DNA from: a bacterium
GTDB lineage: Bacteria > JAAXHH01
DNA: 64,000 nucleotides
Direction of reading: 5' to 3'
Assembly: GCA_963693015.1 (NCBI GenBank)
Contig: OY843748.1
Span: forward strand, 1,024,395 to 1,088,394
Made by a program: the position numbers and the translations under genes. The notes beneath the pieces were generated by a model. It was not told where the DNA came from, did no database searches, and saw only the letters and a program-made list of their open reading frames with translations. The stretch's first letter is position 1. Each line of letters starts with the position of its first letter. Below, piece after piece: positions 33,605 through 58,494 of this stretch.

Positions 33605-34849
33605 ATGCAATTGCATGACGACAGGCGGACCAACCGCGCGGACAACATACAGGGGGCCGAGATCCGACTTCCGACCTCGGACCTGACCGCGGACCTGGGT
33701 TTTTTCATGAAGACCCTGGGGTTCCGCATGGACAAGATCTACCCGGCGGACTACCCGACGGTCTCCGTGCTGTCGGGCCACGGGCTCACCATCCGCCTGG
33801 AGCAGGGCGCCTCCGAACCGCCCGGTACGCTCCGTATCCTCTGCCGCGATCCGGCGGCCCTGGCGGGTGGGGAGACCGAACTCACCGCGCCGAACGGCAC
33901 CCGGGTCGAGATCGCACAGGCCGATCCACCCCTGGAGATCCCGCCGACGCAGCACGCCTTCCTGGTGCGGCGCCTCAAGGACAACACGCCCTGGGTGATC
34001 GGCCGCGCCGGCATGCACTACCGCGACCTGGTGCCCGGCCGCCTCGGCGGGAGCATCATCGCCTCCCACATCCGCATTCCCGACGCCGGACCCGTACCCG
34101 ACGTCGTGCACTACCACACCGTGGGTTTCCAGTTGATCTTCGCGTATAGGGGCGAGGTGAAGCTCGTCTATGAAGACCAAGGGCCGCCCTTCATGCTGAA
34201 GGCGGGAGACTGCGTGATCCAGCCCCCGGAGATCCGGCACCGCGTGCTCGAATCGTCCGAGAACCTGCAGGTGATCGAGATCGGCGTGCCGGCGGACCAC
34301 GTGACCACCATCGACCACGAGGTGGAACTGCCGACCGGGGTGCTGAATCCCGATCGCGTCTTTGGCGGGCAGACGTTCTGCCGCCACCAGCTCAAGGACG
34401 CGGTATGGGAACCGTGGAGAATCGAAGGATTCGAAGCGAGGGAAACGGGCATCGGCGCGGCGACCGGCGGCGTGGCCTCGGTGCAGGTCGCCCGGGTGAC
34501 CGGTGGGTCGAACGGGGCCGCGAAGGGCAGTTCGAAGGAGGACGCAACTGGCGGCTCGATCGGCAGCGGGAACGGCGCGAACGGCGGGAACGGCGGTTCA
34601 GCCGGCGATGGCGGCGAACAGGTCACGAGCCACGCGGGCGACATCCTGTTCACCTTCGTCATGGAGGGAGCGTGTACGCTCAACGGGGAGAACCAGGGCG
34701 CGCACCGGCTGGAGGCGGGTGACGCCTACGTCATCCCGCCCCACACGAAGACCTCCCTGACAGACCGCTCGGACGACCTCGAACTCCTCGAGGTGGCGCT
34801 CCCCGCGCGGTTCAAGACCATCGTGCACGGGGATCTGAGCCTGGCCTGA
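33605..34849 (+). CDS. Cupin-domain protein with an N-terminal VOC/glyoxalase-like segment and an internal Gly/Asn/Ser-rich linker
   Basis: 414 aa. Cupin motifs HYHTVGFQLIF...GDCVIQPPEIRHRV and GDILFTFVMEG...GDAYVIPPHTK, with a GGSNGAAKGSS...GNGANGGNGGSAGDGG linker between them. Confidence 0.6.
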   Translation: MQLHDDRRTNRADNIQGAEIRLPTSDLTADLGFFMKTLGFRMDKIYPADYPTVSVLSGHGLTIRLEQGASEPPGTLRILCRDPAALAGGETELTAPNGTRVEIAQADPPLEIPPTQHAFLVRRLKDNTPWVIGRAGMHYRDLVPGRLGGSIIASHIRIPDAGPVPDVVHYHTVGFQLIFAYRGEVKLVYEDQGPPFMLKAGDCVIQPPEIRHRVLESSENLQVIEIGVPADHVTTIDHEVELPTGVLNPDRVFGGQTFCRHQLKDAVWEPWRIEGFEARETGIGAATGGVASVQVARVTGGSNGAAKGSSKEDATGGSIGSGNGANGGNGGSAGDGGEQVTSHAGDILFTFVMEGACTLNGENQGAHRLEAGDAYVIPPHTKTSLTDRSDDLELLEVALPARFKTIVHGDLSLA

Positions 34850-34915
34850 GGGGACGGAAGCCTGGCAACTTTTTCCCGCACCGGACGAATCAGCCGCTAC
34901 ACCCCTTCCGAATCG

Positions 34916-35770
34916 TCACACGCCCAACACTCCGCGCAATCGGTCGGACGCCCGGCTCAGCACCGTGGGCGGCACAGGGACGTGGTTGTACTCGGAGAAG
35001 CGCCTGTAGGCCCAGTAGGCGGCGTACTGGGATTGAAATACGTAGCGCATCCGGTTCGACGTGACGGGCGCGCCCCGGTGCCAGCACTGGTTGTTCTGCA
35101 GGTAGACGTCTCCCGCCTTGCAGAAGGCCGAGACCGGTCCCCTGCCTTCGAACTCGGGACTTTCCTGGCTGTTGGGATCTCTGCCGGAATACTGGCTGCC
35201 CGGCACGAACTGCGTAGGACCATCCTCGACCGAATCGATATCGGTAAGCGCCATCTGGATGGTGAACCACTGCACCGGCATGCGGACGCGGGGGTCGTGG
35301 CGGGGCACGTCGTCCGGCAGCGGGAACTCCACCCGGTCGTCCACGTGCCAGAGATCGATCGCCTGCCCCGGCGCGTTGCGGATCACGTTCTGGCCGCAGA
35401 ACTTGCAGTCCTCGCCCACGACCGCCTCGGCCAGGCTCAGGATCGGCTCCCGGATCAGCATGTCCACGAACACCGCGTCCAGTTCCAGCGTGTTGCGCAG
35501 CACGAATCCGTCCCCCCGCCCGCTCACGTAATCGGTGCCGGCCAGTACGGGATCGTTGAAACACCGGTCCGTCACCTCGCGGAGGGCATCGACTTCATCC
35601 CGGGTCAGCACCCCGGGGATGAGAGCGAATCCGTCCCGGTGGAAATCCGTGAGGATGGCCTCCATTTTGGCGTCGTCGAGACGCTCTCCTGGAAGTATGC
35701 GATTTGAGATCAATGTTAGCTCCTGTCGGCTGGCGCGTAAGCAGGTTACGTCAGGTAAAGGACACGTCAT
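34916..35770 (-). CDS. Phytanoyl-CoA dioxygenase (PhyH) family oxygenase
   Basis: 284 aa. LDDAKMEAILTDFHRDGFALIPGVL...WHVDD...QFVPGSQ. Confidence 0.8.
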   Translation of the reverse strand: MTCPLPDVTCLRASRQELTLISNRILPGERLDDAKMEAILTDFHRDGFALIPGVLTRDEVDALREVTDRCFNDPVLAGTDYVSGRGDGFVLRNTLELDAVFVDMLIREPILSLAEAVVGEDCKFCGQNVIRNAPGQAIDLWHVDDRVEFPLPDDVPRHDPRVRMPVQWFTIQMALTDIDSVEDGPTQFVPGSQYSGRDPNSQESPEFEGRGPVSAFCKAGDVYLQNNQCWHRGAPVTSNRMRYVFQSQYAAYWAYRRFSEYNHVPVPPTVLSRASDRLRGVLGV

Positions 35771-35827
35771 GGAAACGCTGCCGGTAAACCCCAGCGGCGG
35801 TCGCGGTTGGCGGGCGCATTGGATTGC

Positions 35828-35855
35828 TTGACATCTTGCGCCTTCCCGCTATTAT
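35828..35855 (+). promoter_or_regulatory. Near-consensus sigma70-type promoter (TTGACA-16 nt-TATTAT) upstream of the MTase-HNH fusion gene
   Basis: TTGACA at 35828-35833, a 16-nt spacer, then TATTAT at 35850-35855. This is about 90 nt upstream of the ATG at 35947. Confidence 0.4.
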
Positions 35856-35946
35856 GGCATGACCATAGACTATGGCTTCGACGTTGAATACTCAACCGTT
35901 TTCCCGATTGCACCGTACGCTTGCGCAGGATTTCCGGCAAGAATGA

Positions 35947-37788
35947 ATGCCCGACCGTATGGAGCGGGAAAACGCTCATCAGTTCAACCAGGCATATCCT
36001 GGCTACCCGCGACAGTCCTGCCTTGTCCCCATGAGCAGCACCAGCTACTACGACCTCAACACGGACGCCCTCATCGCCCGGTATGACGGAGTCGATCCTG
36101 CCGACGTCCACGCGGACTGGGCGCCGGCGCACCTGCGTGAAGAACCGGGCTTCGCCTGCGACATCGGCGCCGGCTCCGGACGCGATGCCAATTGGCTTGC
36201 GGGCATGGGATGGGAAGTCGTGGCGGTGGAACCGAGCGCGTTGCGGAACCGCGCTGCGGAACGCTCCCATCCACGCGTCGTCTGGATGAACGACACGCTG
36301 CCGGACCTGCGGGTCCTGCGCGCGCTCGGCCGGCGGTTCGACCTGATTCTGCTGAGCGCCGTGTGGATGCACGTGGCGCCGAAGGTCCGGGAACGGGCGT
36401 TCCGCATGCTTACCGAGTTGCTCAATCCGTCCGGACTGCTGGTAATCACGCTGCGACGGGGCGGAGACGCCGCGGAAAACTCCGCCCGGGGATTTCACGA
36501 CACTTCGGCAGAGGAACTCATCGGTTTCGCCAACCGCCGGGCCGTCGCGCTGCGCGGCCGCTCGACGCAGCCGGACCTGACCCGCCCGGGCATACATTGG
36601 GAATCGCTGGTCTTCGCCATTCCGGACGATGGCACCGGCAGCCTGCCGCTGCTGCGCCACGTGATCGTGAACGACAACAAGTCTTCGACCTACAAGCTGG
36701 GGCTGCTTCGGACCCTGGTGCGGCTCGCCGAAACGGCGCCGGGGCTGGTCATCAGTCGCACGGACGACTACGTGGAAATCCCCTTCGGCGCCGTCGGTCT
36801 GTACTGGCTGAAGCAATACCTGCCCCTGGTCCTTCATCATCGACTGCCGCAACGCCCTTCCGGGCCGGGCGGATATGGCTGGACAAAGGAATCGTTCTAC
36901 CGTCTTGGGGAGGTTTCGCCTTCCGACCTTCGACTCGGCGCCCGGTTTGATTCGGACCGGGCCGTCACCCTTACCCGCGCCATAAACGACGCCTGCGCCA
37001 ATATCGAGCGAATGCCGGTACGCTATATCACGTATCCCGCTTCCGGCGACCGGCAACTGTTCGAATCCGGGTTTTCCAGAACGCGGGCGGCCGCCCGGCC
37101 CATCGTTCTGTCGCGCGAATACCTGGCGCAGTTCGGCCGATTCAGGATTCCCGCACTGCTATGGCAGGCACTCGGTCAGTTCGCATGCTGGCTGGATCCG
37201 GTCATCGTACGCGAATGGCGGCAGCTGACTTCGAACTGGGATGGCCCGGCAAACCTGCGCGGTGCTGCGCGCTGGGCGACCGACACCGGCCAACCTGCCG
37301 CCCTGGTCCGGGAAAGCGGGGCGGAAACAGCACCGAACGACCCCTTCGATTGGACCGAAAGCCGCTACGACACCAGCATGGCCGTCGAACGGGCGAAGCA
37401 GTTGCGCGATGACGGATTCGCACTCACCTGCGTCTGGTCCGCAGCGCGCATTCGAACCGCTCCGCACATCGACCACTGTTTTCCGTGGGCGCGCTGGCGC
37501 AACAACGATCTCTGGAACCTGATGCCGGCCCGCGGCAGCATCAACCTCAGCAAGAGCGACCGGCTGCCCTCGTCCAGCGCCATGGCCGACGCGCGAGACC
37601 GCATGCTGGAGTGGTGGCGGCACGCATGGGTCCAATCGCCGCGGGAAGACCGGTTTTTCATGGAAGCGCGGTACTCTTTGCCGGGGCTCGAAGACGACAC
37701 GCCCAGGTTGGAAGACATCTTCACTGCCGCCCAGCACCAGCGCGCGCGCCTCAAACAGGATCAGCAACTGATCGAGTGGCAGACTTGA
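35947..37788 (+). CDS. Fusion protein: N-terminal class I SAM-dependent methyltransferase domain, middle domain of unknown function, C-terminal HNH-like nuclease motif
   Basis: 613 aa. Motif I FACDIGAGSGRDANWLAGMGWEVVAVEPS resembles small-molecule class I methyltransferases; no DPPY/NPPY motif. C-terminal HIDHCFPWARWRNNDLWNLMPARGSINLSKSD is HNH-like. Confidence 0.65.
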   Translation: MPDRMERENAHQFNQAYPGYPRQSCLVPMSSTSYYDLNTDALIARYDGVDPADVHADWAPAHLREEPGFACDIGAGSGRDANWLAGMGWEVVAVEPSALRNRAAERSHPRVVWMNDTLPDLRVLRALGRRFDLILLSAVWMHVAPKVRERAFRMLTELLNPSGLLVITLRRGGDAAENSARGFHDTSAEELIGFANRRAVALRGRSTQPDLTRPGIHWESLVFAIPDDGTGSLPLLRHVIVNDNKSSTYKLGLLRTLVRLAETAPGLVISRTDDYVEIPFGAVGLYWLKQYLPLVLHHRLPQRPSGPGGYGWTKESFYRLGEVSPSDLRLGARFDSDRAVTLTRAINDACANIERMPVRYITYPASGDRQLFESGFSRTRAAARPIVLSREYLAQFGRFRIPALLWQALGQFACWLDPVIVREWRQLTSNWDGPANLRGAARWATDTGQPAALVRESGAETAPNDPFDWTESRYDTSMAVERAKQLRDDGFALTCVWSAARIRTAPHIDHCFPWARWRNNDLWNLMPARGSINLSKSDRLPSSSAMADARDRMLEWWRHAWVQSPREDRFFMEARYSLPGLEDDTPRLEDIFTAAQHQRARLKQDQQLIEWQT

Positions 37789-37881
37789 CCGCGGCATGAC
37801 GAAGACGGGGCCGCCGGCCCTGGCCATTCGTGGTCGGGCATACCCCCTACACCAGTTCAACTCCAGGAGTGATCACCAGCT

Positions 37882-38724
37882 ATGGAACTCTCAGAACGGA
37901 TAAATCGGCTATACACCGAAGCGGCCGGGGCCGACCGGGACGAAGCCCGCGCAGCCTTCGCGGAACTCCGAACCGAACTCTCGCGTGGACGGGTGCGCGC
38001 GGCCGAGCCCGACCCTTCGTCTCCGACGGGCTGGCGCGTCAACTCATGGGTCAAGGAGGGCATCCTGGTGGGGTTCCGCTGCGGCGACGTGGTAGCCTTC
38101 GAATCTCCAAGCACCGAATCGCCCTGGCTCGACAAGGACACGCTTCCGCTTCGCCCGCTTTCAGCCGAATCGAACGTCAGGATCGTGCCGGGGGGCTCGT
38201 CGGTGCGGGACGGGGCCTACCTGGGAGCAGGCGTCATCTGCATGCCGCCCATGTACGTCAATATCGGCGCCTACGTCGGGGACGGAAGCATGATCGATTC
38301 GAATGCGCTCGTGGGGTCCTGCGCGCAGGTCGGCAGGAACGTCCACGTCAGCGCCGGGGCGCAAATCGGCGGCGTGCTCGAACCGGTTGGCGCCCTGCCG
38401 GTGATCGTCGAGGACGAAGCGCTTGTCGGCGGCAACACGGGGATTTACGAAGGCGCGGTCGTCAAGCGGCGAGCGGTCATCGGGGCCGGTACCATACTGA
38501 CCGGGTCCACCCCGATCTACGACCTGCCCCGCAAACGCATCATCAGGCCCGCCGCGGGTGAACAGACCGTCGTGCCGGAGGACGCGGTCGTCGTCCCTGG
38601 CGCGCGCGCCGTCACAAGCGGCGCGGGCCCTGAATGGGGACTTTCGCTCGCCACGCCGGTCATCGTCAAATACCGCGACGACCGCACGGACACCCGCACG
38701 GAACTCGAGGCATGGATTCGGTAG
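37882..38724 (+). CDS. dapD: 2,3,4,5-tetrahydropyridine-2,6-dicarboxylate N-succinyltransferase (hexapeptide-repeat acyltransferase)
   Basis: 280 aa with left-handed beta-helix hexapeptide repeats (GAYLGAGVICMPPMYVNIGAYVGDGSMIDSNALVGSCAQVGRNVHVSAGAQIGG), typical of short-form DapD. Confidence 0.8.
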   Translation: MELSERINRLYTEAAGADRDEARAAFAELRTELSRGRVRAAEPDPSSPTGWRVNSWVKEGILVGFRCGDVVAFESPSTESPWLDKDTLPLRPLSAESNVRIVPGGSSVRDGAYLGAGVICMPPMYVNIGAYVGDGSMIDSNALVGSCAQVGRNVHVSAGAQIGGVLEPVGALPVIVEDEALVGGNTGIYEGAVVKRRAVIGAGTILTGSTPIYDLPRKRIIRPAAGEQTVVPEDAVVVPGARAVTSGAGPEWGLSLATPVIVKYRDDRTDTRTELEAWIR

Positions 38725-38734
38725 CTGCTCCGTC

Positions 38735-39721
38735 CTACCCCTCGTCCATCACGGCCTGGATCATGGCCTGGATGTACCCGAACTCGTAGGCGAAGGCCTG
38801 CCGGTAGCTGTCGGGGTCCCTGTGCCCCGGCGCGTGGTCCGGCACGCACATGTGCGGGTAGCCGACTTCTTTGAGCGCCTGCATGTTGCGGTGCATGTTC
38901 ATCACGCCCTCGTCGGGCCAGACCTCCTGGAACTTGTTGCGGCCTCCGACGATGTTGCGGAAGTGGCAGAGGAAGATCTTGTTGCGCGAACCCAGATAGC
39001 GGATAATGTCCGGCACCTCGTTGCGCGGGTCGAGCGAACTCTCCGCCATGCAGCCCAGGCAGAGGTTGACACCGTGATAGGGACTGGGGCAGATCTCGAT
39101 GAACTTTTTGAATCCGTCAAAGCCGCCGAGTACCCGGTCCACGCAGCGATATCCGGGCGGCAGCCACGGGTCGCAGGGATGGCAGGCCATGCGGACCTTG
39201 CACTCCGTCGCCACCGGGATCACCCGTTCCAGGAAGTAGGTGATGCGGGCCCAGTTCATCTCGGCGGTCACGGGCTCGTCGTACCGCGGCGGCCGGTCCT
39301 TCGCCTTCTCCAGGTCCCAGGTGCTGTAGATGGACCCGCCGCGTCCGGGCGGATCGCTCTCGGTGCGCTGGTTCTCCATCTCGCACAGGTAGTATTTGAT
39401 CGCGGGGATGCCCGCTTCCGAGGCCTGGCGCACCATGTTGCAGACCAGTTCGATTTCCCTGTCGCCTTCCTCGTATTTTCCCAGCATGTAGTTGGGCACC
39501 TGGCCGCCGTCCACGTTCAGGTCGGCGATGGGCAGGGCCACCATCTCCATATCGATCCCGAAACGGGCGCACTTCTCCTTCTTTGCCGCCAGTTCCTCCA
39601 CGTCCCAGCCGTATTCCCGATGGAAGGTGACGTTGAGCTCGCTCTTGTTGAAGACGCCGTGGCGGGCCAGGTATTCCAGGTCTTCGTCCGCCGTGCTGAA
39701 CTGCTGCGTACCGACGTGCAT
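38735..39721 (-). CDS. Mannonate dehydratase (UxuA)-like / xylose-isomerase-like TIM-barrel enzyme
   Basis: The start MHVGTQQFSTADEDLEYLARHGV at 39721 has GGAGGT 6 nt upstream. KVRMACHPCDPWLPPGYRCVDRVLG...LCHFRNI...CVPDHAPGH resembles UxuA. The track N-terminal extension to 40225 is low-complexity and overlaps the next gene. Confidence 0.65.
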   Translation of the reverse strand: MHVGTQQFSTADEDLEYLARHGVFNKSELNVTFHREYGWDVEELAAKKEKCARFGIDMEMVALPIADLNVDGGQVPNYMLGKYEEGDREIELVCNMVRQASEAGIPAIKYYLCEMENQRTESDPPGRGGSIYSTWDLEKAKDRPPRYDEPVTAEMNWARITYFLERVIPVATECKVRMACHPCDPWLPPGYRCVDRVLGGFDGFKKFIEICPSPYHGVNLCLGCMAESSLDPRNEVPDIIRYLGSRNKIFLCHFRNIVGGRNKFQEVWPDEGVMNMHRNMQALKEVGYPHMCVPDHAPGHRDPDSYRQAFAYEFGYIQAMIQAVMDEG

Positions 39722-45871: not shown

Positions 45872-48800
45872 ATGGCCCAATACGGAACCACTGAGGATAA
45901 TATCCATCCTGGAGCATATGTCAGTCGGGAGGTCATCCCGAAGGGTATGTCGGTCACTAAAGCCGCAGAACTGCTTGGAGTAGGACGACCGGCATTGTCC
46001 AACTTTCTGAACGGCAATGCGGCCCTGTCACAGGAGATGGCACTACGACTCGAACGCACCTTCGGAGCTGACCGAGAAGCCCTGCTTGATCTCCAGGCAA
46101 AGTATGATCGTCGCGACGAAGCCATTGATACACCTGTCGCCGCCGGCCGCCACGCGCCGACGCTGGTCCAGATTACAGCCCGGAGAATCGAGGAGTGGGC
46201 CGACACGATAGTCGCCAGGGAAGAATTGCCCGCGCTACTGCGACGGCTCGTCTACTCAACCGGGAACCAACTCACTCGTGTCGACTTCCCCGCCTTCGAC
46301 AACGCCCAACGGCCCGGATGGGACGGCGAGGTCGAGTTGCCGGTCCCGACGCCCTGGATACCAGCCGGCCGGTCAGGATGGGAATTCGGGTGCAGTGAAA
46401 GACCCGCAACCAAGGCAAACGCAGATTACACGAAGCGCGTCCGGGCGTTTCCTTCAGGGGAACGGCGCAAAAGGACATTTGTTTTCGTCACGCCGCGCAA
46501 CTGGCCAGGGAAAGGCAAATGGGCTGCAGAGAAAGCGGCTCAGGGGGACTGGAAAGATGTGCGCGCCTATGATGCAAGCGATCTGGAACAGTGGCTCGAA
46601 CAGTCCGCCGAGACGCAGGTATGGTTCTCCGAACGGCTCGGAGTTCCGATTGAGGGCTTCCGGTCGCCCGAAATGTGCTGGTCCGATTGGGCTAATGTTT
46701 GCGAACCAGTCCTGTCACCTTCGCTGTTCTCGTTAGCCGAAGGTTCTATCGATGACTTTAATCGGTGGTTGAGTGCGCAGCCAGAACGGAATTTCATCGT
46801 GTCCGCCGACTCCCCCGACGAGGCGCTTGCATTCGCATGCCATGTTGTACGGGAGGCGAAATCCGATGTTGGCGAGCCCGGCGCCGGTGCACTCGTATTT
46901 GACACGCCGGAGTCCATACGGCGGTTCCGCGCATCGAATACCGCCCCGCGCATAGCAATCATCCACAACGCCGTGGTCGAGAGGGAGATCGGGGATCTCT
47001 GCCGGAGTTGCCACGTCATCATCATGCGACCCGCCAATGATGTAGATGTCGACCCCGATATCCGCCTCAAGCTACCGAGTTGGCAGTACTTATCGGACGC
47101 ATTGACATCCATGGAGATAGACGAGGACAGGATCGACAGGCTCATTCGAGAATCGGGTCGGTCACCGGCCGTATTGCGCAGACGGCTATCCACAGTACCT
47201 GCAATCCGCAATCCCGCCTGGTCCGGGAACCCTCAGATTGCCCGCAAGCTGTTACCAGCAGCCTTGGTCGGCGCCTGGAGCAAAGCCTCAACGGCCGACC
47301 TTGAGGTTGTCCGAAGACTCGTCCGTACGGACGATGACAACGTCGTGGAAGACCGTGTCATGGAGTTATTGAACCTCCCGGATTCACCCCTCTGGTCTAG
47401 AGGAGATTATCGGGGTGTGGTCTCGCGCATCGATGCGCTGTTTGGCATTGCCAGATTCGTTACCGGAGAGGCACTCAATATGTTCTTTTCCGAGGCCGAA
47501 CGTGTGCTATCCGAGTCCGACCCCGCACTTGACCTGCCCGAAAACGAAAGATGGACCGCCGCGGTGCATGGCAAGGTACGCGCTTATTCGGCCGCCCTAC
47601 GACAGGGAATCCGTGAAATGCTGGTGATTCTTGCCATCCATGGGAACCACCTGTTCCGAGATCGGCTGAACGTTGATCTTGAGAACAGGGTATCCTCACT
47701 TATTCGTGATTTGTTGACTCCCCTGACGCTCGATATCCTGCTTTCGCACCAAGAAGACCTTCCAGTTTACGCCGAAGCAGCCCCCGACGGCTTTCTCAAG
47801 ATCATCGAAGACGACCTAGATAAGCCGAATCCGGTCGTGTTCGGGCTGCTGAAGCCGGTTGACGCTAGTCTATTTGAAGATTGTCCGCGAACGGGGCTTT
47901 TATGGGCACTGGAATGTCTGGCCTGGAAGCATCCTTCAAAGGTGAGCTTGATACTCGCGAAAATGACGAGGATCCGTATCGATGACAACTGGGCGCACAA
48001 GCCCCTCGACAGCCTTCAGGCGATCTATCGATTTTGGATACCGCAGACCGCAGCTACCCTCGAAGATCGGGTGCGAGGACTTAAACTACTTGCGAACCGC
48101 AATCCGGAAGTTTGCTGGCAAATCTGTGTCGCTCAGTTCGATACTGGTCCACAATCCGCAACGCCCGCTTATCGGCCGCGCTGGCGCGACGAGGCGGAAG
48201 GCTCGGGTCATGGCGTTTCGCACGCACAGATCGTCGAATTCAGGAAGAAGGTGTTCGGCCTCATCCTACAGTGGCTGAACCACGACCATCGGACGCTTGG
48301 CGATCTTGTCGAGCGGTTTCATGGCTTTACCGACGAAGACCAATCTACAATCTGGGACCTGATTGAGGCCTGGGCGGTCGCCGCAGCGGACGACGGGACC
48401 AAATCCGAACTACGCGAACGAATCCGCGAAAAAATGTTCACTCGTAGTGGTATGCGACGGCGTATGCCGGAAGAATCTCTGGCTCGAGCGCGTACGGCAT
48501 ATGACCTGCTGAAACCGCAGGATCCGGTGGATCGAAATTCCTGGCTATTCAAAGACTACTGGATCGAACCATCCGCCGATGGAATCGAAGGTGAAGACAC
48601 CGAGAACCACGAAGATATTGTTCGCCAACTTCGTAGTTCCGCCATGGGAGAGATATGGTCGGAACGTGGTTTCCAGGGGGTGGCCGCTGTCCTGGTTAAT
48701 TGCGCGGTGCCCATGGACGTTGGGGACGCCCTGAACGTCCACATCACGGATTCCGGAGCGAGAGTCTGTTTCCTGCGACAGTGCCTCTCGGTTGCCGACT

Positions 48801-49951
48801 TGGAGTCAGAGATGGACCTGTGCATTCGCGGGTTTCTCAGGTCGATTGAGGAAGAGGCTCGTGCCGAAATCCTGGCAAAGGCAGCCCAAGACTTCGCTTC
48901 GGATCACATTGCCCGACTGTACCGTTGCGCACCGTTTTGCCAGCATACCTGGCGCCTGGTCGACGCATATGACAAAGTAGTCCAGGACCGTTACTGGCAA
49001 GCGGTCATACCGGACAGGGTTCGCTTTACGGAAGAAGAAGAAGAATTATCCGAGTTTGTAGACCGCATGCTGGATGCGAAACGACCCCGTGACGCGTTTC
49101 ACTTCACGCGTTTCGACTATTCGAAGATTGAAACGTCGCAGTTGCAGCGTCTACTTCTAGGCCTCGTCGCAGTGGACGCGGTTCCAGATGAAAGTTACCA
49201 TCACCAACTAAACAGCCATGACGTCGCGGATGCGATGCGGGAACTAAGCGGTCGAGTCGGGATAGATCGATCGGAGATGGCCAAGATGGAGTTCATGTTC
49301 ATCCAGACTCTAAGTCACAGTGAATACGGGATTCCCAATTTGGAACGTTTGGTGGCCGAGTCGCCCATTGACTTTGTCCGGATCCTGGCACTGAGTTTCA
49401 GGCGTAAAGATGGTGGCCAGGATCCCCGCGAATGGGACATAGCGAACGCGGCCAACCGTGCCAAACTGGCAAGCGCGGCTTACCGAGTTCTTATGCATAT
49501 GAGTTTCATTCCCGGAACCACAGATGATGATATAGATGAAGCATACCTGTCACGGTGGATCGCGGAAGCACGACGACTCAGCGCCGAACACGGGCGCGAG
49601 GTAGCGGGTGACCACTACATAGGCCAGATCCTGGCAAGAGGTCCGGCAGACGAGAACGGCGTAAAACCCTGTCAGGCGGTCTCAGCGGCTATGGAAAAGG
49701 TCGGTTCTGAAGAAATCGCTTCCGGATTCTTAATCGGAGTCCTCAACGCACGCGGGGTGGTTTGGCGATCTCACGAGGAAGGGGGGAAGCAGGAACGTGA
49801 ACTCGCGGACATGTACCGCAACTGGGCCTCGCTACGTTCCCCAGACTTTCCCTACGTCGGAAGTATCCTGGAGAAAATCGCTGAAGACTACGACCGTCAG
49901 GCTCAAAGAGAAGACGACAGGGTGGAAATCGAACGCAGGCTGGAGCATTGA
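45872..49951 (+). CDS. Giant (1359 aa) protein: N-terminal HigA-like HTH antitoxin-type domain fused to a large uncharacterised body (central unknown domain plus long helical-repeat region)
   Basis: N-terminal HPGAYVSREVIPKGMSVTKAAELLGVGRPALSNFLNGNAALSQEMALRLERTFG matches the HigA/VapI HTH. No Walker A or nuclease motif was found in the remaining 1270 aa. The region is lower in GC than the chromosome backbone. The stop lies 58 nt before the next gene. Confidence 0.7.
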   Translation: MAQYGTTEDNIHPGAYVSREVIPKGMSVTKAAELLGVGRPALSNFLNGNAALSQEMALRLERTFGADREALLDLQAKYDRRDEAIDTPVAAGRHAPTLVQITARRIEEWADTIVAREELPALLRRLVYSTGNQLTRVDFPAFDNAQRPGWDGEVELPVPTPWIPAGRSGWEFGCSERPATKANADYTKRVRAFPSGERRKRTFVFVTPRNWPGKGKWAAEKAAQGDWKDVRAYDASDLEQWLEQSAETQVWFSERLGVPIEGFRSPEMCWSDWANVCEPVLSPSLFSLAEGSIDDFNRWLSAQPERNFIVSADSPDEALAFACHVVREAKSDVGEPGAGALVFDTPESIRRFRASNTAPRIAIIHNAVVEREIGDLCRSCHVIIMRPANDVDVDPDIRLKLPSWQYLSDALTSMEIDEDRIDRLIRESGRSPAVLRRRLSTVPAIRNPAWSGNPQIARKLLPAALVGAWSKASTADLEVVRRLVRTDDDNVVEDRVMELLNLPDSPLWSRGDYRGVVSRIDALFGIARFVTGEALNMFFSEAERVLSESDPALDLPENERWTAAVHGKVRAYSAALRQGIREMLVILAIHGNHLFRDRLNVDLENRVSSLIRDLLTPLTLDILLSHQEDLPVYAEAAPDGFLKIIEDDLDKPNPVVFGLLKPVDASLFEDCPRTGLLWALECLAWKHPSKVSLILAKMTRIRIDDNWAHKPLDSLQAIYRFWIPQTAATLEDRVRGLKLLANRNPEVCWQICVAQFDTGPQSATPAYRPRWRDEAEGSGHGVSHAQIVEFRKKVFGLILQWLNHDHRTLGDLVERFHGFTDEDQSTIWDLIEAWAVAAADDGTKSELRERIREKMFTRSGMRRRMPEESLARARTAYDLLKPQDPVDRNSWLFKDYWIEPSADGIEGEDTENHEDIVRQLRSSAMGEIWSERGFQGVAAVLVNCAVPMDVGDALNVHITDSGARVCFLRQCLSVADLESEMDLCIRGFLRSIEEEARAEILAKAAQDFASDHIARLYRCAPFCQHTWRLVDAYDKVVQDRYWQAVIPDRVRFTEEEEELSEFVDRMLDAKRPRDAFHFTRFDYSKIETSQLQRLLLGLVAVDAVPDESYHHQLNSHDVADAMRELSGRVGIDRSEMAKMEFMFIQTLSHSEYGIPNLERLVAESPIDFVRILALSFRRKDGGQDPREWDIANAANRAKLASAAYRVLMHMSFIPGTTDDDIDEAYLSRWIAEARRLSAEHGREVAGDHYIGQILARGPADENGVKPCQAVSAAMEKVGSEEIASGFLIGVLNARGVVWRSHEEGGKQERELADMYRNWASLRSPDFPYVGSILEKIAEDYDRQAQREDDRVEIERRLEH

Positions 49952-50009
49952 ACGGTTTCAAGACGTTGATACGTCAATTGGACCCGTGAACAAGAACAGG
50001 ATATTCCAC

Positions 50010-52667
50010 ATGACTAATCCTTCCGAAGCAACTGGCAGCGATTCTCACGATCAAGGCACGGGTAGTGTAGCCGATCCTCTGGCCGATATCCTCGCTTGGT
50101 CTCGGAATTGCCCTGTATGGCAACGTGACGCGCTACGACGCCTATGTATCAAGGGTAGGCTGGACGAGTCCGACACGTCAGACCTCATATCCCTCTGCAA
50201 GCACAGGGGAAAGGACGCTACTGTATTTACTGCAGAGCATATTCCCGATCCGGATGCTGCATCAGCGACGTTAAATCTAAGGACCATCCGAGGTGTAAAG
50301 AACGTAAACGCCCTGAAACCGGATGAAGTCCTCACCTTCGGAAAGAAGGAGAAGGGCCTGACCGTTGTGTACGGTGACAACGGAGCGGGTAAATCGGGAT
50401 ACGCCCGTATTCTCAAGCAAGTCTGCCGGTCGCGCGCACCTGCGAACCAAAACGGTATTCTCCCTAACATCCATGCAGAGACAGCTGGACAACAACAGGC
50501 TGTTATCGAGTACACTGCCGACGGAGAAAACAAATGCGCGAAGTGGACAGCTGATCATACCGATAACACCGCGCTCTCCGGAATCAGTATTTTTGACCGC
50601 AATACCGCCAACGTTCATGTGCAAAATGCGAACGATGTCGCCTACACGCCCATGCCGATGCGCGTGCTTGAGCAACTCGCTGAAATCTGCAAGCAGGTTA
50701 GTCAACGTATCAAACAGGACATCCAAGAACTTGAACAGTTGACCCCGGCAATCATCCGGCGACCGCAGTGCCATGACGACACGGCGGTCGGCAAGCTGAT
50801 CGCCAGACTCGGCGAACAAACGAAGGTACAGGAAGTTCGCGCTCTCGCGACTTTAAACGATGCTGAGAAAGCTCGGATGGCAACGCTCCAGGGTGATATA
50901 GGGACCGATCCCCACAATAAAGCACGCCAGGTCAGGGCGCTGAGGGATCGTCTAGATGCGTTCAGTACGAAGTTCGAGGCATTGCAGAAAGCTGTTGACG
51001 ATGAACAGGTCGTCCACCTTATGGCCTTGAATAAGGTATATCAAACCGCGCGGACGGCAGCCGAGGCCGCTGCCGGAGATCTCTTCGCCGACGAGCCGTT
51101 GCCCGATATCGGCACCGATGTGTGGCGCACGCTTTGGGACGCGGCCCGGCACTACTCAGAGGAACGGGTTTACCCGGACGAGTCATTTCCGTTCACGGGC
51201 GACGACGCTCGGTGTGTACTGTGTCAGCAAGAATTGAACGACGATGCGGCCGACCGGTTTAAACGCTTTGAGGATTTTGTTAAAGACGACACGAAGCGGA
51301 AGGAAAACATGGCCGGTGAAGAGTACCGAGCCGCGCTTGACGAGATCGTCCGTGCTGATATTACCATCGCAGATATTCAGGCCACGATCGCTCTGATCCG
51401 CGACGAGTTGAATGACGATGAACTGGCTGAAACCGCAGGTCGGGCAGCGGTGACGCTGAAATGGCGAATACGTGCGATCCGCCGTAACCATAGGCTCGGG
51501 AACCAGGCCGCCCTTCCCACAGCCGCGACCTGGCCTGCCGATGCCGTCGCCGTTCACACCACCAACCTGTCGGATCGAATACGAGTTTTGCTCGCAGAGA
51601 ACGAGTCCGAGGAACGCAGGCGGATGCGCACCGAGTTCGCGGAACTGAAGGACCGCGAATGGCTGGCAACGATACAGAACGATATCATTGCGGAGATAGA
51701 CCGCCGAAAGAGGCGGGCTATGCTCAAGGAGACCCTCAAGGATACGACGACAAATCGGATCACGACCAAGAGCGGGGAAATTGCCGAGCGGCTTGTAACG
51801 AATGCCTTGCGCGAGCGGTTTACAGATGAGATCGCCAAATTGGACCTTAGAGCACTAAAGATAGAACTTCGTAAGGGACAGGCGAACTACGGTATACCGC
51901 GCTTCAAGGTCAGCCTGATCGGAAAACCTGATGCGCCGCTCGGCGAGGTCCTGAGCGAGGGTGAGCACCGTTGCGTCGCGCTGGCAGCGTTTCTCGCAGA
52001 ACTGGCCACTACGGAAAGCCGGTCGGCGATCGTGTTCGACGACCCCGTTTCGTCGCTTGATCACATGCACCGCAAATCGGTAGCATACAGGTTGGCCGAA
52101 GAAGGCAAATCTCGGCAGGTTATAGTCTTTACGCACGATATCGCATTCCTGTTCCTGCTCGATCAGGCATGCCGCGAAAAGGGTGCGCTTATTGCCTTCC
52201 GAAGTGTGTCACGCAACGACGACTACGCGGGACTCGTTCAACAGGACCCGCCAGTGCGCGCCCAGTCGCTCGACAAGGTGATCGACGGGTTGCAGAAGCA
52301 GTTCGACAACGAGAAATACTTCTACGAGAGCGGCGAACATAACCAATGGGAGCGAACCGTGGACGGGTTGCAAAAACGCTTGCGTGTTACATGGGAACGA
52401 GCCGTCGAGGAGGCTCTCAGCCCGGTATTCAAGCGCCTTTCCGATAAGGTGGACACCACAGGACTGGCGAAGGTCACTGTATTGAAGATAGATGACTGCA
52501 ACAAGATGCGCGAAGCTTACGGTCGCTGTTCGCCCTTACTGCACAGTGCGCCGGATGCTCTTAACCGACCAATTCCACCGCCTGGAGCCGTGCAGGCAGA
52601 GATCACCACATTGCGAACGTGGGTTGCAGACATAAGGCAACGCCAAGGCGAGATCGACCGGATGTAG
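50010..52667 (+). CDS. RloC-like AAA_13 family Rad50/SMC-type ATPase with coiled-coil zinc hook
   Basis: The start MTNPSEATG at 50010 is preferred; the track start at 49797 overlaps the upstream gene. Walker A VVYGDNGAGKSGYARI. Coiled-coil middle region with CVLCQQEL (a CxxC hook). ABC signature LSEGEHRCVALAAFLAEL, Walker B IVFDDPVSSLD, H-loop VIVFTHD, and a roughly 180 aa C-terminal tail. Confidence 0.7.
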   Translation: MTNPSEATGSDSHDQGTGSVADPLADILAWSRNCPVWQRDALRRLCIKGRLDESDTSDLISLCKHRGKDATVFTAEHIPDPDAASATLNLRTIRGVKNVNALKPDEVLTFGKKEKGLTVVYGDNGAGKSGYARILKQVCRSRAPANQNGILPNIHAETAGQQQAVIEYTADGENKCAKWTADHTDNTALSGISIFDRNTANVHVQNANDVAYTPMPMRVLEQLAEICKQVSQRIKQDIQELEQLTPAIIRRPQCHDDTAVGKLIARLGEQTKVQEVRALATLNDAEKARMATLQGDIGTDPHNKARQVRALRDRLDAFSTKFEALQKAVDDEQVVHLMALNKVYQTARTAAEAAAGDLFADEPLPDIGTDVWRTLWDAARHYSEERVYPDESFPFTGDDARCVLCQQELNDDAADRFKRFEDFVKDDTKRKENMAGEEYRAALDEIVRADITIADIQATIALIRDELNDDELAETAGRAAVTLKWRIRAIRRNHRLGNQAALPTAATWPADAVAVHTTNLSDRIRVLLAENESEERRRMRTEFAELKDREWLATIQNDIIAEIDRRKRRAMLKETLKDTTTNRITTKSGEIAERLVTNALRERFTDEIAKLDLRALKIELRKGQANYGIPRFKVSLIGKPDAPLGEVLSEGEHRCVALAAFLAELATTESRSAIVFDDPVSSLDHMHRKSVAYRLAEEGKSRQVIVFTHDIAFLFLLDQACREKGALIAFRSVSRNDDYAGLVQQDPPVRAQSLDKVIDGLQKQFDNEKYFYESGEHNQWERTVDGLQKRLRVTWERAVEEALSPVFKRLSDKVDTTGLAKVTVLKIDDCNKMREAYGRCSPLLHSAPDALNRPIPPPGAVQAEITTLRTWVADIRQRQGEIDRM

Positions 52668-52842
52668 TAACGCCGAACCGGTGGTGCTCAGTTTGCGCCA
52701 TTACCTCATTGTCGGGTTTCGCTTGAAGTTTTGACCCAATTCCTGCGGGGTTGTCCAGAGTTTAGACCGCAGATTGAGCGTCACGCAAATTACGGATTTA
52801 ACCGGTGCTGGGCGGCATCGTTATGTATCCGGAGGACCGCGA

Positions 52843-53730: not shown

Positions 53731-53886
53731 CCGATGGTTGTTGCTCTGCTGGAGACCGTGGTAGATTGTAACGTCTGGATATACTGCCACTCGGGTACCA
53801 GCTATCAAGCACAAGGTGATAATCGCTTCGGGCGGTCTGGGCTAGCTGGTAGCTACGTCGACTATCGCCGGAATACCATCTCCATC

Positions 53887-58320: not shown

Positions 58321-58494
58321 GGGATTGACCTTGAACAAGGTAGTACCGGGAACCACCCGGAACGGGGTGGAACGCTTCTGTCAACACGCGATTCCACAAT
58401 CAACTCTTGTTCAGTTGAGATCGGCAAAGGCGCAGATCACGAATTAGGAAGGTTGACGATCAGACGGTCAAAGCCAAGATGGTCCACTACCTTC

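What the first reader, a model, noticed from the sequence alone, without database searches (positions are those of the whole stretch)
35828..37788. SAM-methyltransferase-HNH fusion protein driven by a near-consensus promoter
The 613 aa protein has a small-molecule-type class I methyltransferase N-terminus (DIGAGSGRD, no DPPY/NPPY motif), a middle domain of about 250 aa that I cannot assign, and a C-terminal HNH-like motif (HIDHCFPWARWRNNDLWNL). A TTGACA-16 nt-TATTAT promoter lies about 90 nt upstream. The gene has host-like GC and stands alone between a PhyH gene and dapD. I do not recognise this domain combination. It could be a nucleic-acid-modifying or restriction-like enzyme, or a tRNA/rRNA-directed activity.
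Basis: partly seen in the sequence, partly recalled or inferred. Interest (0 to 1): 0.55.

Follow-up and report, generated by a model that had tools for sequence, protein, structure and literature searches.

The report
Methyltransferase-HNH nuclease, likely phage defence
This gene encodes a real three-part protein (SAM-dependent methyltransferase, a domain of unknown fold, and a Cas9-type HNH nuclease) from a widespread, unstudied family that sits in anti-phage defence islands in other bacteria, so it is probably a new kind of single-gene restriction-like defence enzyme.

Summary
The gene most likely starts at ATG 36031 (585 aa), not at 35947 (613 aa). All three parts are real: a class I methyltransferase whose sequence and fold neighbours are small-molecule enzymes, a domain of about 200 aa with no Pfam, PDB or viral-structure match, and an HNH_4 (Cas9-type) nuclease with its catalytic D-H...N...N residues conserved. 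The TTGACA-16-TATTAT promoter is conserved in 17 orthologous loci.

The fusion is not unique. It defines a large uncharacterised family, annotated only as "class I SAM-dependent methyltransferase", found in sponge and coral symbionts, Halieaceae, Pseudomonadales and alphaproteobacterial plasmids. It is essentially absent from viruses. A sister family of about 385 aa carries the same unknown domain plus HNH_4 without the methyltransferase.

Best reading: a stand-alone SAM-dependent, restriction-like defence nuclease. The methyltransferase substrate and how self is told from non-self remain unknown. New variant of a known kind; interest about 0.5.

The parts
35812..35905 (+). Conserved promoter and leader block shared by 17 orthologous loci, lying between the divergent PhyH gene and the target gene.
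   Evidence: Alignment A4. The block of about 90 nt is conserved while the DNA downstream of it, up to the ATG, is variable or deleted. No Rfam family matches. There is no supported RNA structure: -0.3 kcal/mol and no covariation.
35828..35855 (+). Sigma-70-type promoter, TTGACA-16 nt-TATTAT.
   Evidence: It is the only promoter-like site in 4 kb and matches 11 of 12 positions. The -35 is invariant, and positions 1, 2 and 6 of the -10 are invariant, in 17 loci.
36031..37788 (+). Most likely coding sequence: 585 aa plus the stop codon. The longer 613-aa ORF from 35947 is probably not translated.
   Evidence: Homologues start at MSSTSYYD / MNSTxYYD. The upstream 28 codons are not conserved and are deleted in some orthologues. 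dN/dS is 0.18-0.25 against orthologues.
36031..36621 (+). Class I SAM-dependent methyltransferase domain (aa 1-197 of the 585-aa protein). Motif I, DIGAGSGRD, is at nt 36160-36186.
   Evidence: Pfam Methyltransf_23/12/25/11, E 5e-11 to 5e-9. TehB and other small-molecule methyltransferases in the PDB. Foldseek top hits are RdmB, DnrK, NodS, UbiG, TPMT and TehB, E about 1e-7, probability 1.00. G46, G48, G50, E67, D88, D104, W112 and H114 are conserved in at least 90 % of 54 full-length relatives. pLDDT is about 85-94.
36622..37230 (+). Middle domain of unknown fold class (aa 198-400). Signatures: PDDGTG, ND-K-S-TYKLxLLR, and WL(D/E)P..EW.
   Evidence: No Pfam family in any of 62 relatives. No hit in a PDB sequence-profile search. 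No Foldseek hit in PDB or BFVD. The model is confident, pLDDT about 90. It is homologous to the N-terminal part of stand-alone cyanobacterial HNH proteins, hhalign probability 98 %.
37231..37395 (+). Variable, probably disordered linker (aa 401-455).
   Evidence: Lowest conservation of any segment, 22 % mean pairwise identity. Length varies among homologues. pLDDT is below 60.
37396..37590 (+). HNH_4 (Cas9-type His-Me finger) nuclease core. Catalytic D-H is at nt 37471-37476 (D509/H510 in the 613-aa numbering, D481/H482 in the 585-aa numbering), followed by N524, N533 and K536 (613-aa numbering).
   Evidence: Pfam HNH_4 scores 22.9 bits against a cut-off of 22. All 62 relatives match it, best E 3.7e-10. 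D, H, N, N and K are invariant or nearly so. The model shows a beta-beta-alpha element with pLDDT 95-97. All Foldseek hits are Cas9 HNH domains or phage HNH endonucleases; E-values are weak (at best 7e-3) but probabilities reach 0.97.
37591..37788 (+). Conserved C-terminal helical extension (aa 521-585) and stop codon. Signatures: WW, EA.YSLP, HQRARLKQDQQ..EW.
   Evidence: Conserved columns in A1 and A2. Helices are predicted with pLDDT 94-98.

Best explanation
The gene (36031-37788) encodes a stand-alone, horizontally spread defence-type DNA nuclease of an uncharacterised family.

Its core is a two-domain module: a novel domain of about 200 aa followed by a Cas9-type HNH_4 nuclease. This module also exists on its own in a large sister family. 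In this family a catalytically competent class I SAM-dependent methyltransferase is fused to its N-terminus.

The mechanism I favour is restriction-modification-like. The middle domain binds nucleic acid. The methyltransferase uses SAM to mark the cell's own target. The HNH cuts unmarked, or otherwise foreign, DNA.

Shown here: the domain identities, retention of the SAM-binding and HNH catalytic residues, purifying selection on all three domains, the conserved strong promoter, patchy HGT-type distribution on chromosomes and plasmids but not in viruses, and defence-island context in other lineages.

Inferred: the defence role itself, DNA as the substrate, and what the methyltransferase does. 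The last point is the weakest step.
For: Domain identities:
- Methyltransferase and HNH_4.
- Catalytic and SAM-binding residues are conserved in at least 90 % of relatives.

Selection and expression:
- dN/dS is 0.05-0.25 in each of the three domains.
- Mean pairwise identities are similar: 38, 40 and 44 %.
- The near-consensus promoter is conserved.

Distribution:
- 98 confirmed loci in a scan of one genome per each of 185,579 species, spread over Latescibacterota/Gemmatimonadota MAGs, several gammaproteobacterial orders and Thermoanaerobaculia.
- Up to 79 % identity between phyla; dS is about 0.93 for the 74 % and 71 % identical gammaproteobacterial copies L017 and L018.
- Present on plasmids of Roseomonas, Sphingobium, Pseudoalteromonas, Azospirillum and Sinorhizobium.
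- No phage record and only 2 partial hits in 2.9 million viral contigs.

Contexts of homologues:
- Zorya plus a type IV REase plus Mrr.
- Toxin-antitoxin pairs plus ScoMcrA-SBD-HNH_2.
- Transposases plus a TIR protein.
- CRISPR I-E and Thoeris-like TIR.
- dGTPase and NERD.
- Among 116 dereplicated immediate neighbours, the top Pfam and PADLOC families are HNH_2, type IV REase, helicase/PLD, PbeA-like and NOV_C.

Other:
- The sister family without the methyltransferase also lies in defence islands.
- The methyltransferase domain's only PADLOC match is Mad2 of the methylation-based MADS system, E down to 7e-21 among relatives. Deleting mad2 abolished DNA methylation in that system (preprint 10.1101/2023.03.30.534895).
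Against: - No homologue has been tested experimentally, and no paper describing this fusion was found.
- In the window's own lineage the gene sits among metabolic genes in stable synteny, not in an island.
- The methyltransferase has no DNA-methyltransferase motif IV (DPPY/NPPY) and no PCQ motif. It matches no PADLOC DNA-methyltransferase model, and its 50 best fold neighbours are all small-molecule enzymes.
- The middle domain is no more variable than the catalytic domains, so it does not look like a diversifying specificity domain.
- The sister module lives without any adjacent methyltransferase. The nuclease module therefore does not intrinsically need protective methylation.
- Whether PADLOC's 'mad2' model corresponds to the paper's mad2 was not verified.
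Confidence: 0.45

Rival explanations
1. A modification-dependent (type IV-like) or infection-activated nuclease. The middle domain senses modified or foreign DNA and the HNH cuts. The methyltransferase domain does not mark self DNA. It serves instead as a SAM-binding regulator (for example sensing phage-induced SAM depletion), or it reads or converts a flipped-out modified base.
For: - The sister family has the same sensor plus HNH_4 module and no methyltransferase within 6 kb, yet persists in defence islands.
- The most frequent immediate neighbours are type IV-type enzymes. There are eight different HNH_2 proteins with varied sensor domains, seven of them within 250 nt on the same strand, plus PLD-helicase-DUF3427 proteins that match PADLOC mREase_IV at E 3e-246.
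- The methyltransferase is of the small-molecule type.
- There is no hypervariable specificity region.
Against: - The middle domain matches none of the known modification readers (SRA, SBD, PUA/EVE, winged helix, DUF3427), either by Pfam or in a direct comparison with an SBD protein.
- The full set of SAM-binding and active-site-region residues is as conserved as the nuclease. That fits catalysis better than sensing alone.
- Adjacency to type IV genes may only reflect shared island hot spots.
Confidence: 0.27
2. A selfish or addiction-type element, or a homing-type HNH endonuclease that carries a methyltransferase. It would be kept because its loss is harmful, or because it spreads, and not because it defends the cell.
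For: - HGT-type distribution, often beside transposases and recombinases.
- Stable retention at one site in the Latescibacterota lineage.
- HNH domains are common in homing endonucleases.
Against: - Essentially absent from phage and viral collections, where homing HNH genes abound.
- It is not inserted within other genes or introns.
- It has no repeated flanks of its own, and its neighbours differ by lineage.
- The large conserved extra domains are atypical of homing enzymes.
Confidence: 0.08
3. A housekeeping or stress-related RNA/DNA or metabolite-modifying enzyme, for example a tRNA/rRNA methyltransferase with an RNA- or DNA-processing HNH. This would be consistent with its position beside dapD.
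For: - Conserved synteny with PhyH and dapD, and host-like codon usage, in 17 genomes.
- Generic class I methyltransferases include rRNA/tRNA enzymes. PHROG 'tRNA methyltransferase' matches 49 of 62 relatives, and there are weak NpmA and RrnaAD hits.
Against: - Found in fewer than 0.1 % of species representatives, and scattered across phyla with 70-79 % identity, which indicates HGT.
- No conserved neighbour across lineages.
- Defence-island contexts elsewhere.
- No NCBIfam equivalog reaches even a fifth of its cut-off.
Confidence: 0.07

Closest known systems
Cas9-type HNH nuclease domain (Pfam HNH_4, PF13395)
   Same: The D-H...N...N(x2)K catalytic pattern and a beta-beta-alpha-metal core. 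All Foldseek PDB hits of the C-terminal half are Cas9 HNH domains. PADLOC Cas9 models match up to 18 relatives through this domain.
   Different: There is no RuvC, REC or PAM-interacting part, no guide RNA and no CRISPR context. Here the HNH is the C-terminal effector of a 585-aa protein.
Stand-alone 'HNH endonuclease domain-containing proteins' of about 385 aa (for example WP_256875451.1 on Nostoc sp. C052 plasmid pC052_G, and Anabaena/Nostoc plasmid copies)
   Same: The same unknown N-terminal domain (hhalign probability 98 % over 198 columns, including the K-x-T-x-YK-x-ALLR and WIE..EW signatures) followed by HNH_4. They also lie in defence islands beside HNH_2, GmrSD_N and other defence genes.
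   Different: They have no methyltransferase domain, and none is encoded within 6 kb in two of the three loci checked. They share only about 22 % identity with the window protein. They are equally uncharacterised and absent from PADLOC.
Type IV modification-dependent restriction enzymes built as sensor + HNH (McrA/ScoMcrA SBD-SRA-HNH, EVE-HNH VcaM4I, PUA/DUF3427-HNH, winged-helix-HNH; PMC6765204, PMC7897488, PMC11037411)
   Same: Single-polypeptide 'reader domain + HNH' logic and island context. Such enzymes (HNH_2 family) are the commonest direct neighbours of this family.
   Different: The nuclease is HNH_4, not HNH_2 or classic HNH. The reader domain matches none of the known readers. A methyltransferase is fused, which type IV enzymes lack.
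Single-chain restriction-modification enzymes (Type IIG/IIL such as MmeI; Type ISP such as LlaGI)
   Same: Methyltransferase and nuclease in one polypeptide with an intervening or adjacent DNA-recognition part. The genes are constitutive and stand alone.
   Different: Those carry gamma-class N6-adenine methyltransferases with NPPY/NPPF and PD-(D/E)XK or Mrr nucleases. A genuine example lies in this same window at 53887-58356 and matches PADLOC REase_MTase_IIG at E 3e-160. The target matches none of those models.
Mad2 of MADS (methylation-associated defence system; preprint 10.1101/2023.03.30.534895)
   Same: It is the only PADLOC model matched by the methyltransferase domain: E 4e-12 for the window protein and down to 7e-21 in relatives, over model positions 281-400 of 492. 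In the preprint, deleting mad2 abolished DNA methylation and defence.
   Different: The similarity covers only the SAM-binding core. None of the other mad genes is nearby. Mad2 has no HNH. The correspondence between the PADLOC model and the paper's gene was not verified.
TehB / TPMT / NodS / UbiG-type small-molecule class I methyltransferases
   Same: They are the best sequence and fold neighbours of the N-terminal domain. The motif after beta-4 is of the 'S-x-V-x-x-H' small-molecule type.
   Different: All scores lie far below the family cut-offs (for example TehB 18.6 bits against 20.4; NCBIfam TehB 24 against 218). Those enzymes are single-domain and metabolic, with no nuclease.

Membership tests
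HNH_4 / His-Me finger nuclease | A profile match above the curated cut-off. | tested here: met
   PF13395 scores 22.9 bits against a cut-off of 22, which is marginal. All 62 relatives match it, best E 3.7e-10.
HNH_4 / His-Me finger nuclease | Catalytic His preceded by Asp, a structural Asn and a metal-binding Asn. | tested here: met
   D509, H510, N524, N533 and K536 (613-aa numbering) are invariant or at least 90 % conserved.
HNH_4 / His-Me finger nuclease | Beta-beta-alpha-metal fold. | tested here: met
   The model has strands at 282-285 and 300-303 and a helix at 305-311 of the 388-aa segment, pLDDT 95-97. Structural hits are only HNH domains, with weak E-values (at best 7e-3) and probabilities up to 0.97.
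HNH_4 / His-Me finger nuclease | Metal-dependent nuclease activity. | not testable with these tools
   Needs biochemistry.
Class I SAM-dependent methyltransferase | Rossmann-like fold with motif I GxGxG, an acidic residue at the end of beta-2, and the motif III Asp. | tested here: met
   Pfam E 5e-11. Foldseek E 1e-7, probability 1.00. G46, G48, G50, E67 and D88 are conserved in at least 90 % of relatives.
DNA amino-methyltransferase (N6A/N4C) or C5-cytosine methyltransferase | Motif IV (D/N/S)PP(Y/F/W), or the PCQ and ENV catalytic motifs. | tested here: not met
   The sequence after beta-4 is LLSAVWMHV. No Pfam N6_Mtase, MethyltransfD12 or DNA_methylase hit was found, and no PADLOC MTase_I/II/III or PglX hit.
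Single-chain Type IIG/IIL/ISP restriction-modification enzyme | A DNA methyltransferase, a PD-(D/E)XK or Mrr nuclease, and a target-recognition domain. | tested here: not met
   No match to the REase_MTase_IIG or REase_MTase_I models, whereas the window's own Type ISP-like gene matches at 3e-160. The nuclease is an HNH. The middle domain is not hypervariable.
Type IV modification-dependent restriction enzyme | A known modified-DNA reader domain (SRA, SBD, PUA/EVE, winged helix, DUF3427, McrB-N). | tested here: not met
   No Pfam hit in the middle domain of 62 relatives. hhalign against an SBD-HNH neighbour gives probability 0.4 %. The PDB profile search found nothing.
Type IV modification-dependent restriction enzyme | Cleaves only modified DNA. 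| not testable with these tools
   Needs assays with modified substrates.
MADS (mad1-8) | A multi-gene operon with mandatory mad6, mad7 and mad8. | tested here: not met
   The neighbours are PhyH and DapD. Only the methyltransferase core matches mad2.
Any defence system in PADLOC-DB v2.0.0 | A full-length match to a system protein. | tested here: not met
   Only partial-domain hits were found: mad2, Cas9 HNH, PDC-M01B and PtuB. The sister family has no hit at all.
Defence-island gene (guilt by association) | Recurrent location beside known defence genes in unrelated genomes. | tested here: met
   Nine loci or plasmid regions of homologues outside the window's lineage carry known defence or mobile genes. 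Two others hold mostly metabolic genes or genes without a Pfam match. The neighbour census points the same way. This is not met in the window's own lineage. No formal background control was run.

The most novel reading that the evidence does not exclude
The methyltransferase does not methylate bases as a restriction-modification enzyme would. It acts on an unusual nucleic-acid nucleophile or ligand, and that chemistry is coupled to HNH cutting.

The most specific version is S-methylation of phosphorothioate (PT) DNA.
- The nearest specific methyltransferase families are the chalcogen and thiol methylators TehB and TPMT.
- PT-linked genes recur beside family members: an orphan DndC 1 nt upstream in two loci, a ScoMcrA-type sulfur-binding-domain HNH overlapping the 3' end in another, and PbeA-like type IV enzymes in Halieaceae.

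Alternative versions are methylation or reading of a hypermodified phage base, or a SAM-depletion sensor that unleashes the nuclease.
Probability: 0.1. Interest if true: 0.85.

Novelty: new variant of a known kind. Interest (0 to 1): 0.5.

Why it matters
If confirmed, this would add a widespread single-gene defence system built from parts not seen together before: a small-molecule-type SAM methyltransferase, a domain with no recognisable relatives, and a Cas9-type HNH.

It would raise a concrete biochemical question: what does a non-DNA-type methyltransferase do in a nuclease-based immune protein? The candidates are self-marking by unconventional methylation, SAM sensing, or chemistry on modified DNA.

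The family is present in culturable bacteria (Haliea salexigens DSM 19537, Roseomonas mucosa, Sphingobium yanoikuyae, Pseudoalteromonas sp. THAF3, Azospirillum, Sinorhizobium fredii NGR234), so it can be tested directly. The sister family and the recurrent pairing with HNH_2 type IV enzymes suggest a larger unexplored group of nuclease modules. It also illustrates gene exchange among sponge and coral symbionts of different phyla.

For genome annotation, 'class I SAM-dependent methyltransferase' is a misleadingly bland name.

Tried and rejected
1. MTase-less members of the family. I first took about 380-aa relatives (P0343, P0325) as proof that the nuclease module works without the methyltransferase. 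tblastn shows they are artefacts. In L090 the methyltransferase coding sequence lies just upstream in another frame (a frameshift or miscall). L089 is cut by the contig end. Only the distant sister family truly lacks the domain.

2. Sulfur-binding domain. The TYKLGLLR signature resembles the NKPLLVLLA motif of ScoMcrA-type sulfur-binding domains. hhalign against the SBD-HNH neighbour gave probability 0.4 %, so the idea is rejected as untestable with one template sequence.

3. PD-(D/E)XK motif. The pattern PD(199)...D(215)xK(217) looks like one, but the model places these residues in a loop and a helix, not in the required strands. Rejected.

4. Conserved partner gene. Clustering the neighbours of 80 loci found no partner shared beyond single lineages.

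5. RNA element in the conserved leader. No Rfam hit and no supported structure or covariation. The small palindrome CATAGAyTATG near the predicted transcription start is more likely a DNA operator.

7. Literature. Searches for this fusion found nothing relevant.

8. Mad2. The MADS preprint does not say which methyltransferase class Mad2 belongs to. The PADLOC mad2 model matches this domain and a stand-alone Nostoc methyltransferase far better than it matches a genuine N6 methyltransferase. This remains a lead, not proof.
Full report
**Observation.**
The window holds an ORF at 35947-37788 (+) of 613 aa. It carries DIGAGSGRD (nt 36160-36186) and HIDHCFPWARWRNNDLWNL (from nt 37465). A promoter scan of 34800-38800 finds a single sigma-70-like site, TTGACA-16-TATTAT at 35828-35855. 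It matches 11 of 12 positions, against 0.6 +/- 0.6 sites in shuffles. The neighbours are a PhyH-family dioxygenase on the minus strand and DapD on the plus strand. The gene has 65.4 % GC and 78.5 % GC3, and its codon usage resembles that of the surrounding metabolic genes. An obviously foreign cluster further downstream has 54-57 % GC.

**Correction of the start.**
All close homologues begin at the residue equivalent to M29 (MSSTSYYDL / MNSTxYYD) and are about 585 aa. I aligned the upstream DNA of 17 orthologous loci. A block of about 90 nt, containing the promoter, is conserved. The stretch between that block and the ATG at 36031 is variable and largely deleted in several genomes. The distance from the -10 to the ATG ranges from 66 to 186 nt. 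The first 28 codons of the long ORF are therefore not coding, and the gene is 36031-37788 (585 aa). In these 17 loci the -35 hexamer is invariant, and positions 1, 2 and 6 of the -10 are invariant. This is the pattern expected of a working promoter. About 50 nt downstream of the -10 are also conserved and include a small palindrome (CATAGAyTATG). This stretch matches no Rfam family and has no supported RNA structure.

**Domains.**
- *N-terminus (aa 1-197 of 585).* It matches the generic class I methyltransferase families with E 5e-11 to 5e-9, and TehB and TPMT weakly. Its PDB sequence relatives are small-molecule methyltransferases. The 50 best Foldseek hits of the model are all small-molecule enzymes, among them RdmB, DnrK, NodS, UbiG, TPMT and TehB (E about 1e-7, probability 1.00). 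Motif I (GxGxG), the acidic residue after beta-2, the motif III Asp and the post-beta-4 residues (V-W-x-H) are conserved in at least 90 % of 54 full-length relatives. There is no DPPY/NPPY or PCQ motif, and no hit to any DNA-methyltransferase model in Pfam or PADLOC.
- *C-terminus.* It matches HNH_4, marginally in the window protein (22.9 bits against a cut-off of 22) but in all 62 relatives (best E 3.7e-10). D509, H510, N524, N533 and K536 (613-aa numbering) are invariant or nearly so.
- *Structure of residues 226-613.* A model built on a 62-sequence alignment is confident (pLDDT 90.6, pTM 0.89) and shows the beta-beta-alpha element. Its only structural matches, in PDB and in the viral library, are Cas9 HNH domains and phage HNH endonucleases. 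The E-values are weak (at best 7e-3) and the probabilities reach 0.97.

**The family.**
The fusion is common.
- The protein database holds thousands of hits. Full-length relatives of 55-93 % identity are named, at best, 'class I SAM-dependent methyltransferase'.
- An exhaustive search with the middle domain plus HNH finds 708 clusters (at 50 % identity) with E <= 1e-10.
- A scan of one genome per species confirmed 98 loci. They come from Latescibacterota/Gemmatimonadota MAGs of sponges and corals (82-93 %; the window's lineage), Rariloculaceae and other gammaproteobacterial symbionts (69-79 %), Pseudomonadales, Pseudohongiella, Thermoanaerobaculia (62-66 %), Halieaceae (53-58 %) and others.
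- Copies also lie on plasmids of Roseomonas, Sphingobium, Pseudoalteromonas, Azospirillum and Sinorhizobium.
- There is no copy in 50,697 phage records, and only two partial hits in 2.9 million viral contigs.
- Identity reaches 79 % between phyla; for the 74 % and 71 % identical gammaproteobacterial copies (L017, L018) dS is about 0.93. This indicates horizontal transfer. dN/dS of 0.05-0.25 in each domain shows that all three are maintained.

**A sister family.**
Plasmid hits of 22 % identity, annotated 'HNH endonuclease domain-containing protein', led to a large family of uniform proteins of about 385 aa, more than 1,000 hits in cyanobacteria and others. Their N-terminal part is homologous to the middle domain (hhalign probability 98 % over 198 columns, sharing the K-x-T-x-YK-x-ALLR and WIE..EW signatures). 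Their C-terminus is HNH_4. They have no methyltransferase, and none is encoded nearby in two of three loci. The unknown domain plus HNH_4 is thus an autonomous module, and the window's family is that module with a methyltransferase added. Apparent methyltransferase-less members within the window's own family turned out to be artefacts, one a frameshift and one a contig end.

**Context.**
Clustering the neighbours of 80 loci shows no partner conserved across lineages. The 17 Latescibacterota-lineage loci share full synteny (PhyH, dapD and other metabolic genes). Elsewhere the surroundings are mostly defence or mobile islands, although two of the loci examined (L084; L088) hold mainly metabolic or unannotated genes:
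- Zorya I, an SMC-like/Metallophos pair, NUDIX, a PLD-helicase-DUF3427 protein (PADLOC type IV REase, E 3e-246), Mrr and AddAB-like genes.
- Toxin-antitoxin pairs and a ScoMcrA-SBD-HNH_2 gene that overlaps the 3' end.
- Transposases, NOV_C, a TIR protein and recombinases.
- A variable hot spot shared by two Pseudomonadales genomes.
- An orphan DndC 1 nt upstream (570 bits against a cut-off of 290).
- CRISPR I-E, and a Thoeris-like TIR with 7-deazaguanine genes.
- HxsBC, BrnTA and IS elements; dGTPase and NERD.

Among 116 dereplicated immediate neighbours, the commonest Pfam family is HNH_2 (8). Next come helicase/PLD/DUF3427, SLFN-type helicase, NUDIX and NOV_C. PADLOC hits include HNH, type IV REase, PbeA-like, PDC candidates, DndC/SspD and BrxP. 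Seven of the eight HNH_2 proteins lie within 250 nt on the same strand, and they carry different N-terminal sensor domains. The sister family is also flanked by an HNH_2 gene. I did not run a formal genome-wide background control.

**Interpretation.**
The evidence supports a defence-type nuclease. It has an intact HNH and a patchy, horizontally transferred distribution on chromosomes and plasmids. It is absent from viruses. It recurs in islands beside restriction and abortive-infection genes. It is under purifying selection, and it has a strong conserved promoter. The function of the methyltransferase is the open point.

- *Restriction-modification-like scheme (self-marking plus cutting).* This is the commonest logic for methyltransferase-nuclease fusions. 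It fits the invariant presence and conservation of the methyltransferase. It also fits the fact that the only defence-database relative is Mad2 of the methylation-based MADS system. Against it stand the small-molecule-type active site, the lack of a diversifying specificity region, and a sister module that lives without a methyltransferase.
- *Main rival.* A type IV-like or infection-triggered nuclease in which the methyltransferase binds SAM as a regulator, or acts on a modified base. The type IV-rich neighbourhoods favour this view.
- *Less likely.* Housekeeping and selfish-element readings.
- *Speculative but testable.* Chemistry on phosphorothioate DNA. This is suggested by the affinity to TehB and TPMT and by the recurrent PT-related neighbours: DndC, SBD-HNH and PbeA-like enzymes.

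**Comparison with known systems.**
The protein is a member of the HNH_4 nuclease superfamily and of the class I methyltransferase superfamily. It fails the defining features of DNA amino- and C5-methyltransferases, of Type IIG/ISP restriction-modification enzymes, of known type IV readers and of MADS. It is not in PADLOC v2. Literature searches found no description of it. I therefore rate it a new variant of a known kind: a single-protein, restriction-like defence nuclease with an unassigned domain.

**Verdict.**
The finding is real and its domain reading is right. The combination is not unique to this genome. It marks a sizeable uncharacterised family that is a good candidate for a new single-gene defence system. 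Interest 0.5. The mechanism is unresolved, and the experiments listed under next steps would decide it.

Noticed in passing
window 45872-58356: A low-GC cluster (54-57 % GC, GC3 53-62 %, against 61 % for the window). It looks like an acquired defence island and contains three genes. The first is a 1359-aa protein with only an N-terminal HTH_3 match. The second is a 956-aa AAA_13/SMC-like ATPase that matches the PADLOC candidate PDC-S06 at E 1e-191 (and mad3 at 3e-16). The third, on the minus strand, is a 1488-aa Mrr_cat_2 + helicase + N6_Mtase fusion that matches Type IIG/ISP restriction-modification models at E 3e-160.
   Followed up: partly
window 35812-35905: A conserved block of about 90 nt between the divergent PhyH gene and the target gene. 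Beyond the promoter hexamers, about 50 nt of leader are conserved in 17 genomes. They include the palindrome CATAGAyTATG near the predicted transcription start, and GTTGAATACTCAAC followed by a T-run. There is no Rfam match and no covariation, so this is possibly an operator for an unidentified regulator.
   Followed up: partly
L023/L082, L049, L058, L032, L076, L056, L042, L015; also L093, L096-L099: HNH_2-family proteins, which are putative type IV restriction enzymes, carry at least four different N-terminal domains (ScoMcrA sulfur-binding, PUA-like and others). They lie directly beside the gene, within 250 nt on the same strand in 7 of 8 cases, in several gammaproteobacterial lineages. One also lies beside the methyltransferase-less sister gene on cyanobacterial plasmids. 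This may be a functional pairing or a shared insertion hot spot.
   Followed up: partly
L027 / L086 8464-9996 (also L087 and L026): An orphan DndC (TIGR03183, 570 bits against a cut-off of 290; PADLOC DndC E 2e-219) ends 1 nt before the start of the methyltransferase-HNH gene. No dndA, dndB, dndD or dndE was seen in the 20-kb locus. An ImmA/IrrE-like M78 peptidase and a small gene are transcribed divergently.
   Followed up: partly
L081 11680-15252 and eleven other loci, mostly Halieaceae (L033, L036, L037, L040, L041, L043, L044, L046, L051, L072, L075): A MutT-like NUDIX gene and a protein of about 1033 aa (PLD + helicase + DUF3427; PADLOC type IV REase E 3e-246, also PbeA-like) accompany the target gene. 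Their order and orientation vary.
   Followed up: partly
L082 versus L084: Two Pseudomonadales genomes share flanks, S4/HSP15 on one side and glutamate-cysteine ligase, DsbB and a radical SAM gene on the other. Between the flanks they carry different cargo around the target gene, which indicates an integration hot spot.
   Followed up: no
L093 469-1957 (Nostoc sp. C052 plasmid pC052_G): A stand-alone 268-aa methyltransferase is about 30 % identical to the target's methyltransferase domain and matches PADLOC mad2 at E 3e-27. It sits next to a GIY-YIG nuclease, 7.7 kb from the sister-family HNH gene. This may be an unfused version of a methyltransferase + nuclease pair.
   Followed up: no
L090 578-1211: A family member beside a type I-E CRISPR-Cas locus is called as a 383-aa protein. 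Its methyltransferase-coding part lies upstream in another frame, and the gene caller placed a spurious antisense ORF over it. This is a frameshift or sequencing error. It warns that short 'HNH-only' members of this family in databases can be artefacts.
   Followed up: yes
window 35767-37056 (minus strand) and other long antisense ORFs: A 429-aa ORF runs antisense to the target gene, with several others of 80-250 aa. They are typical high-GC shadow ORFs. Conservation and dN/dS support only the plus-strand frame.
   Followed up: yes
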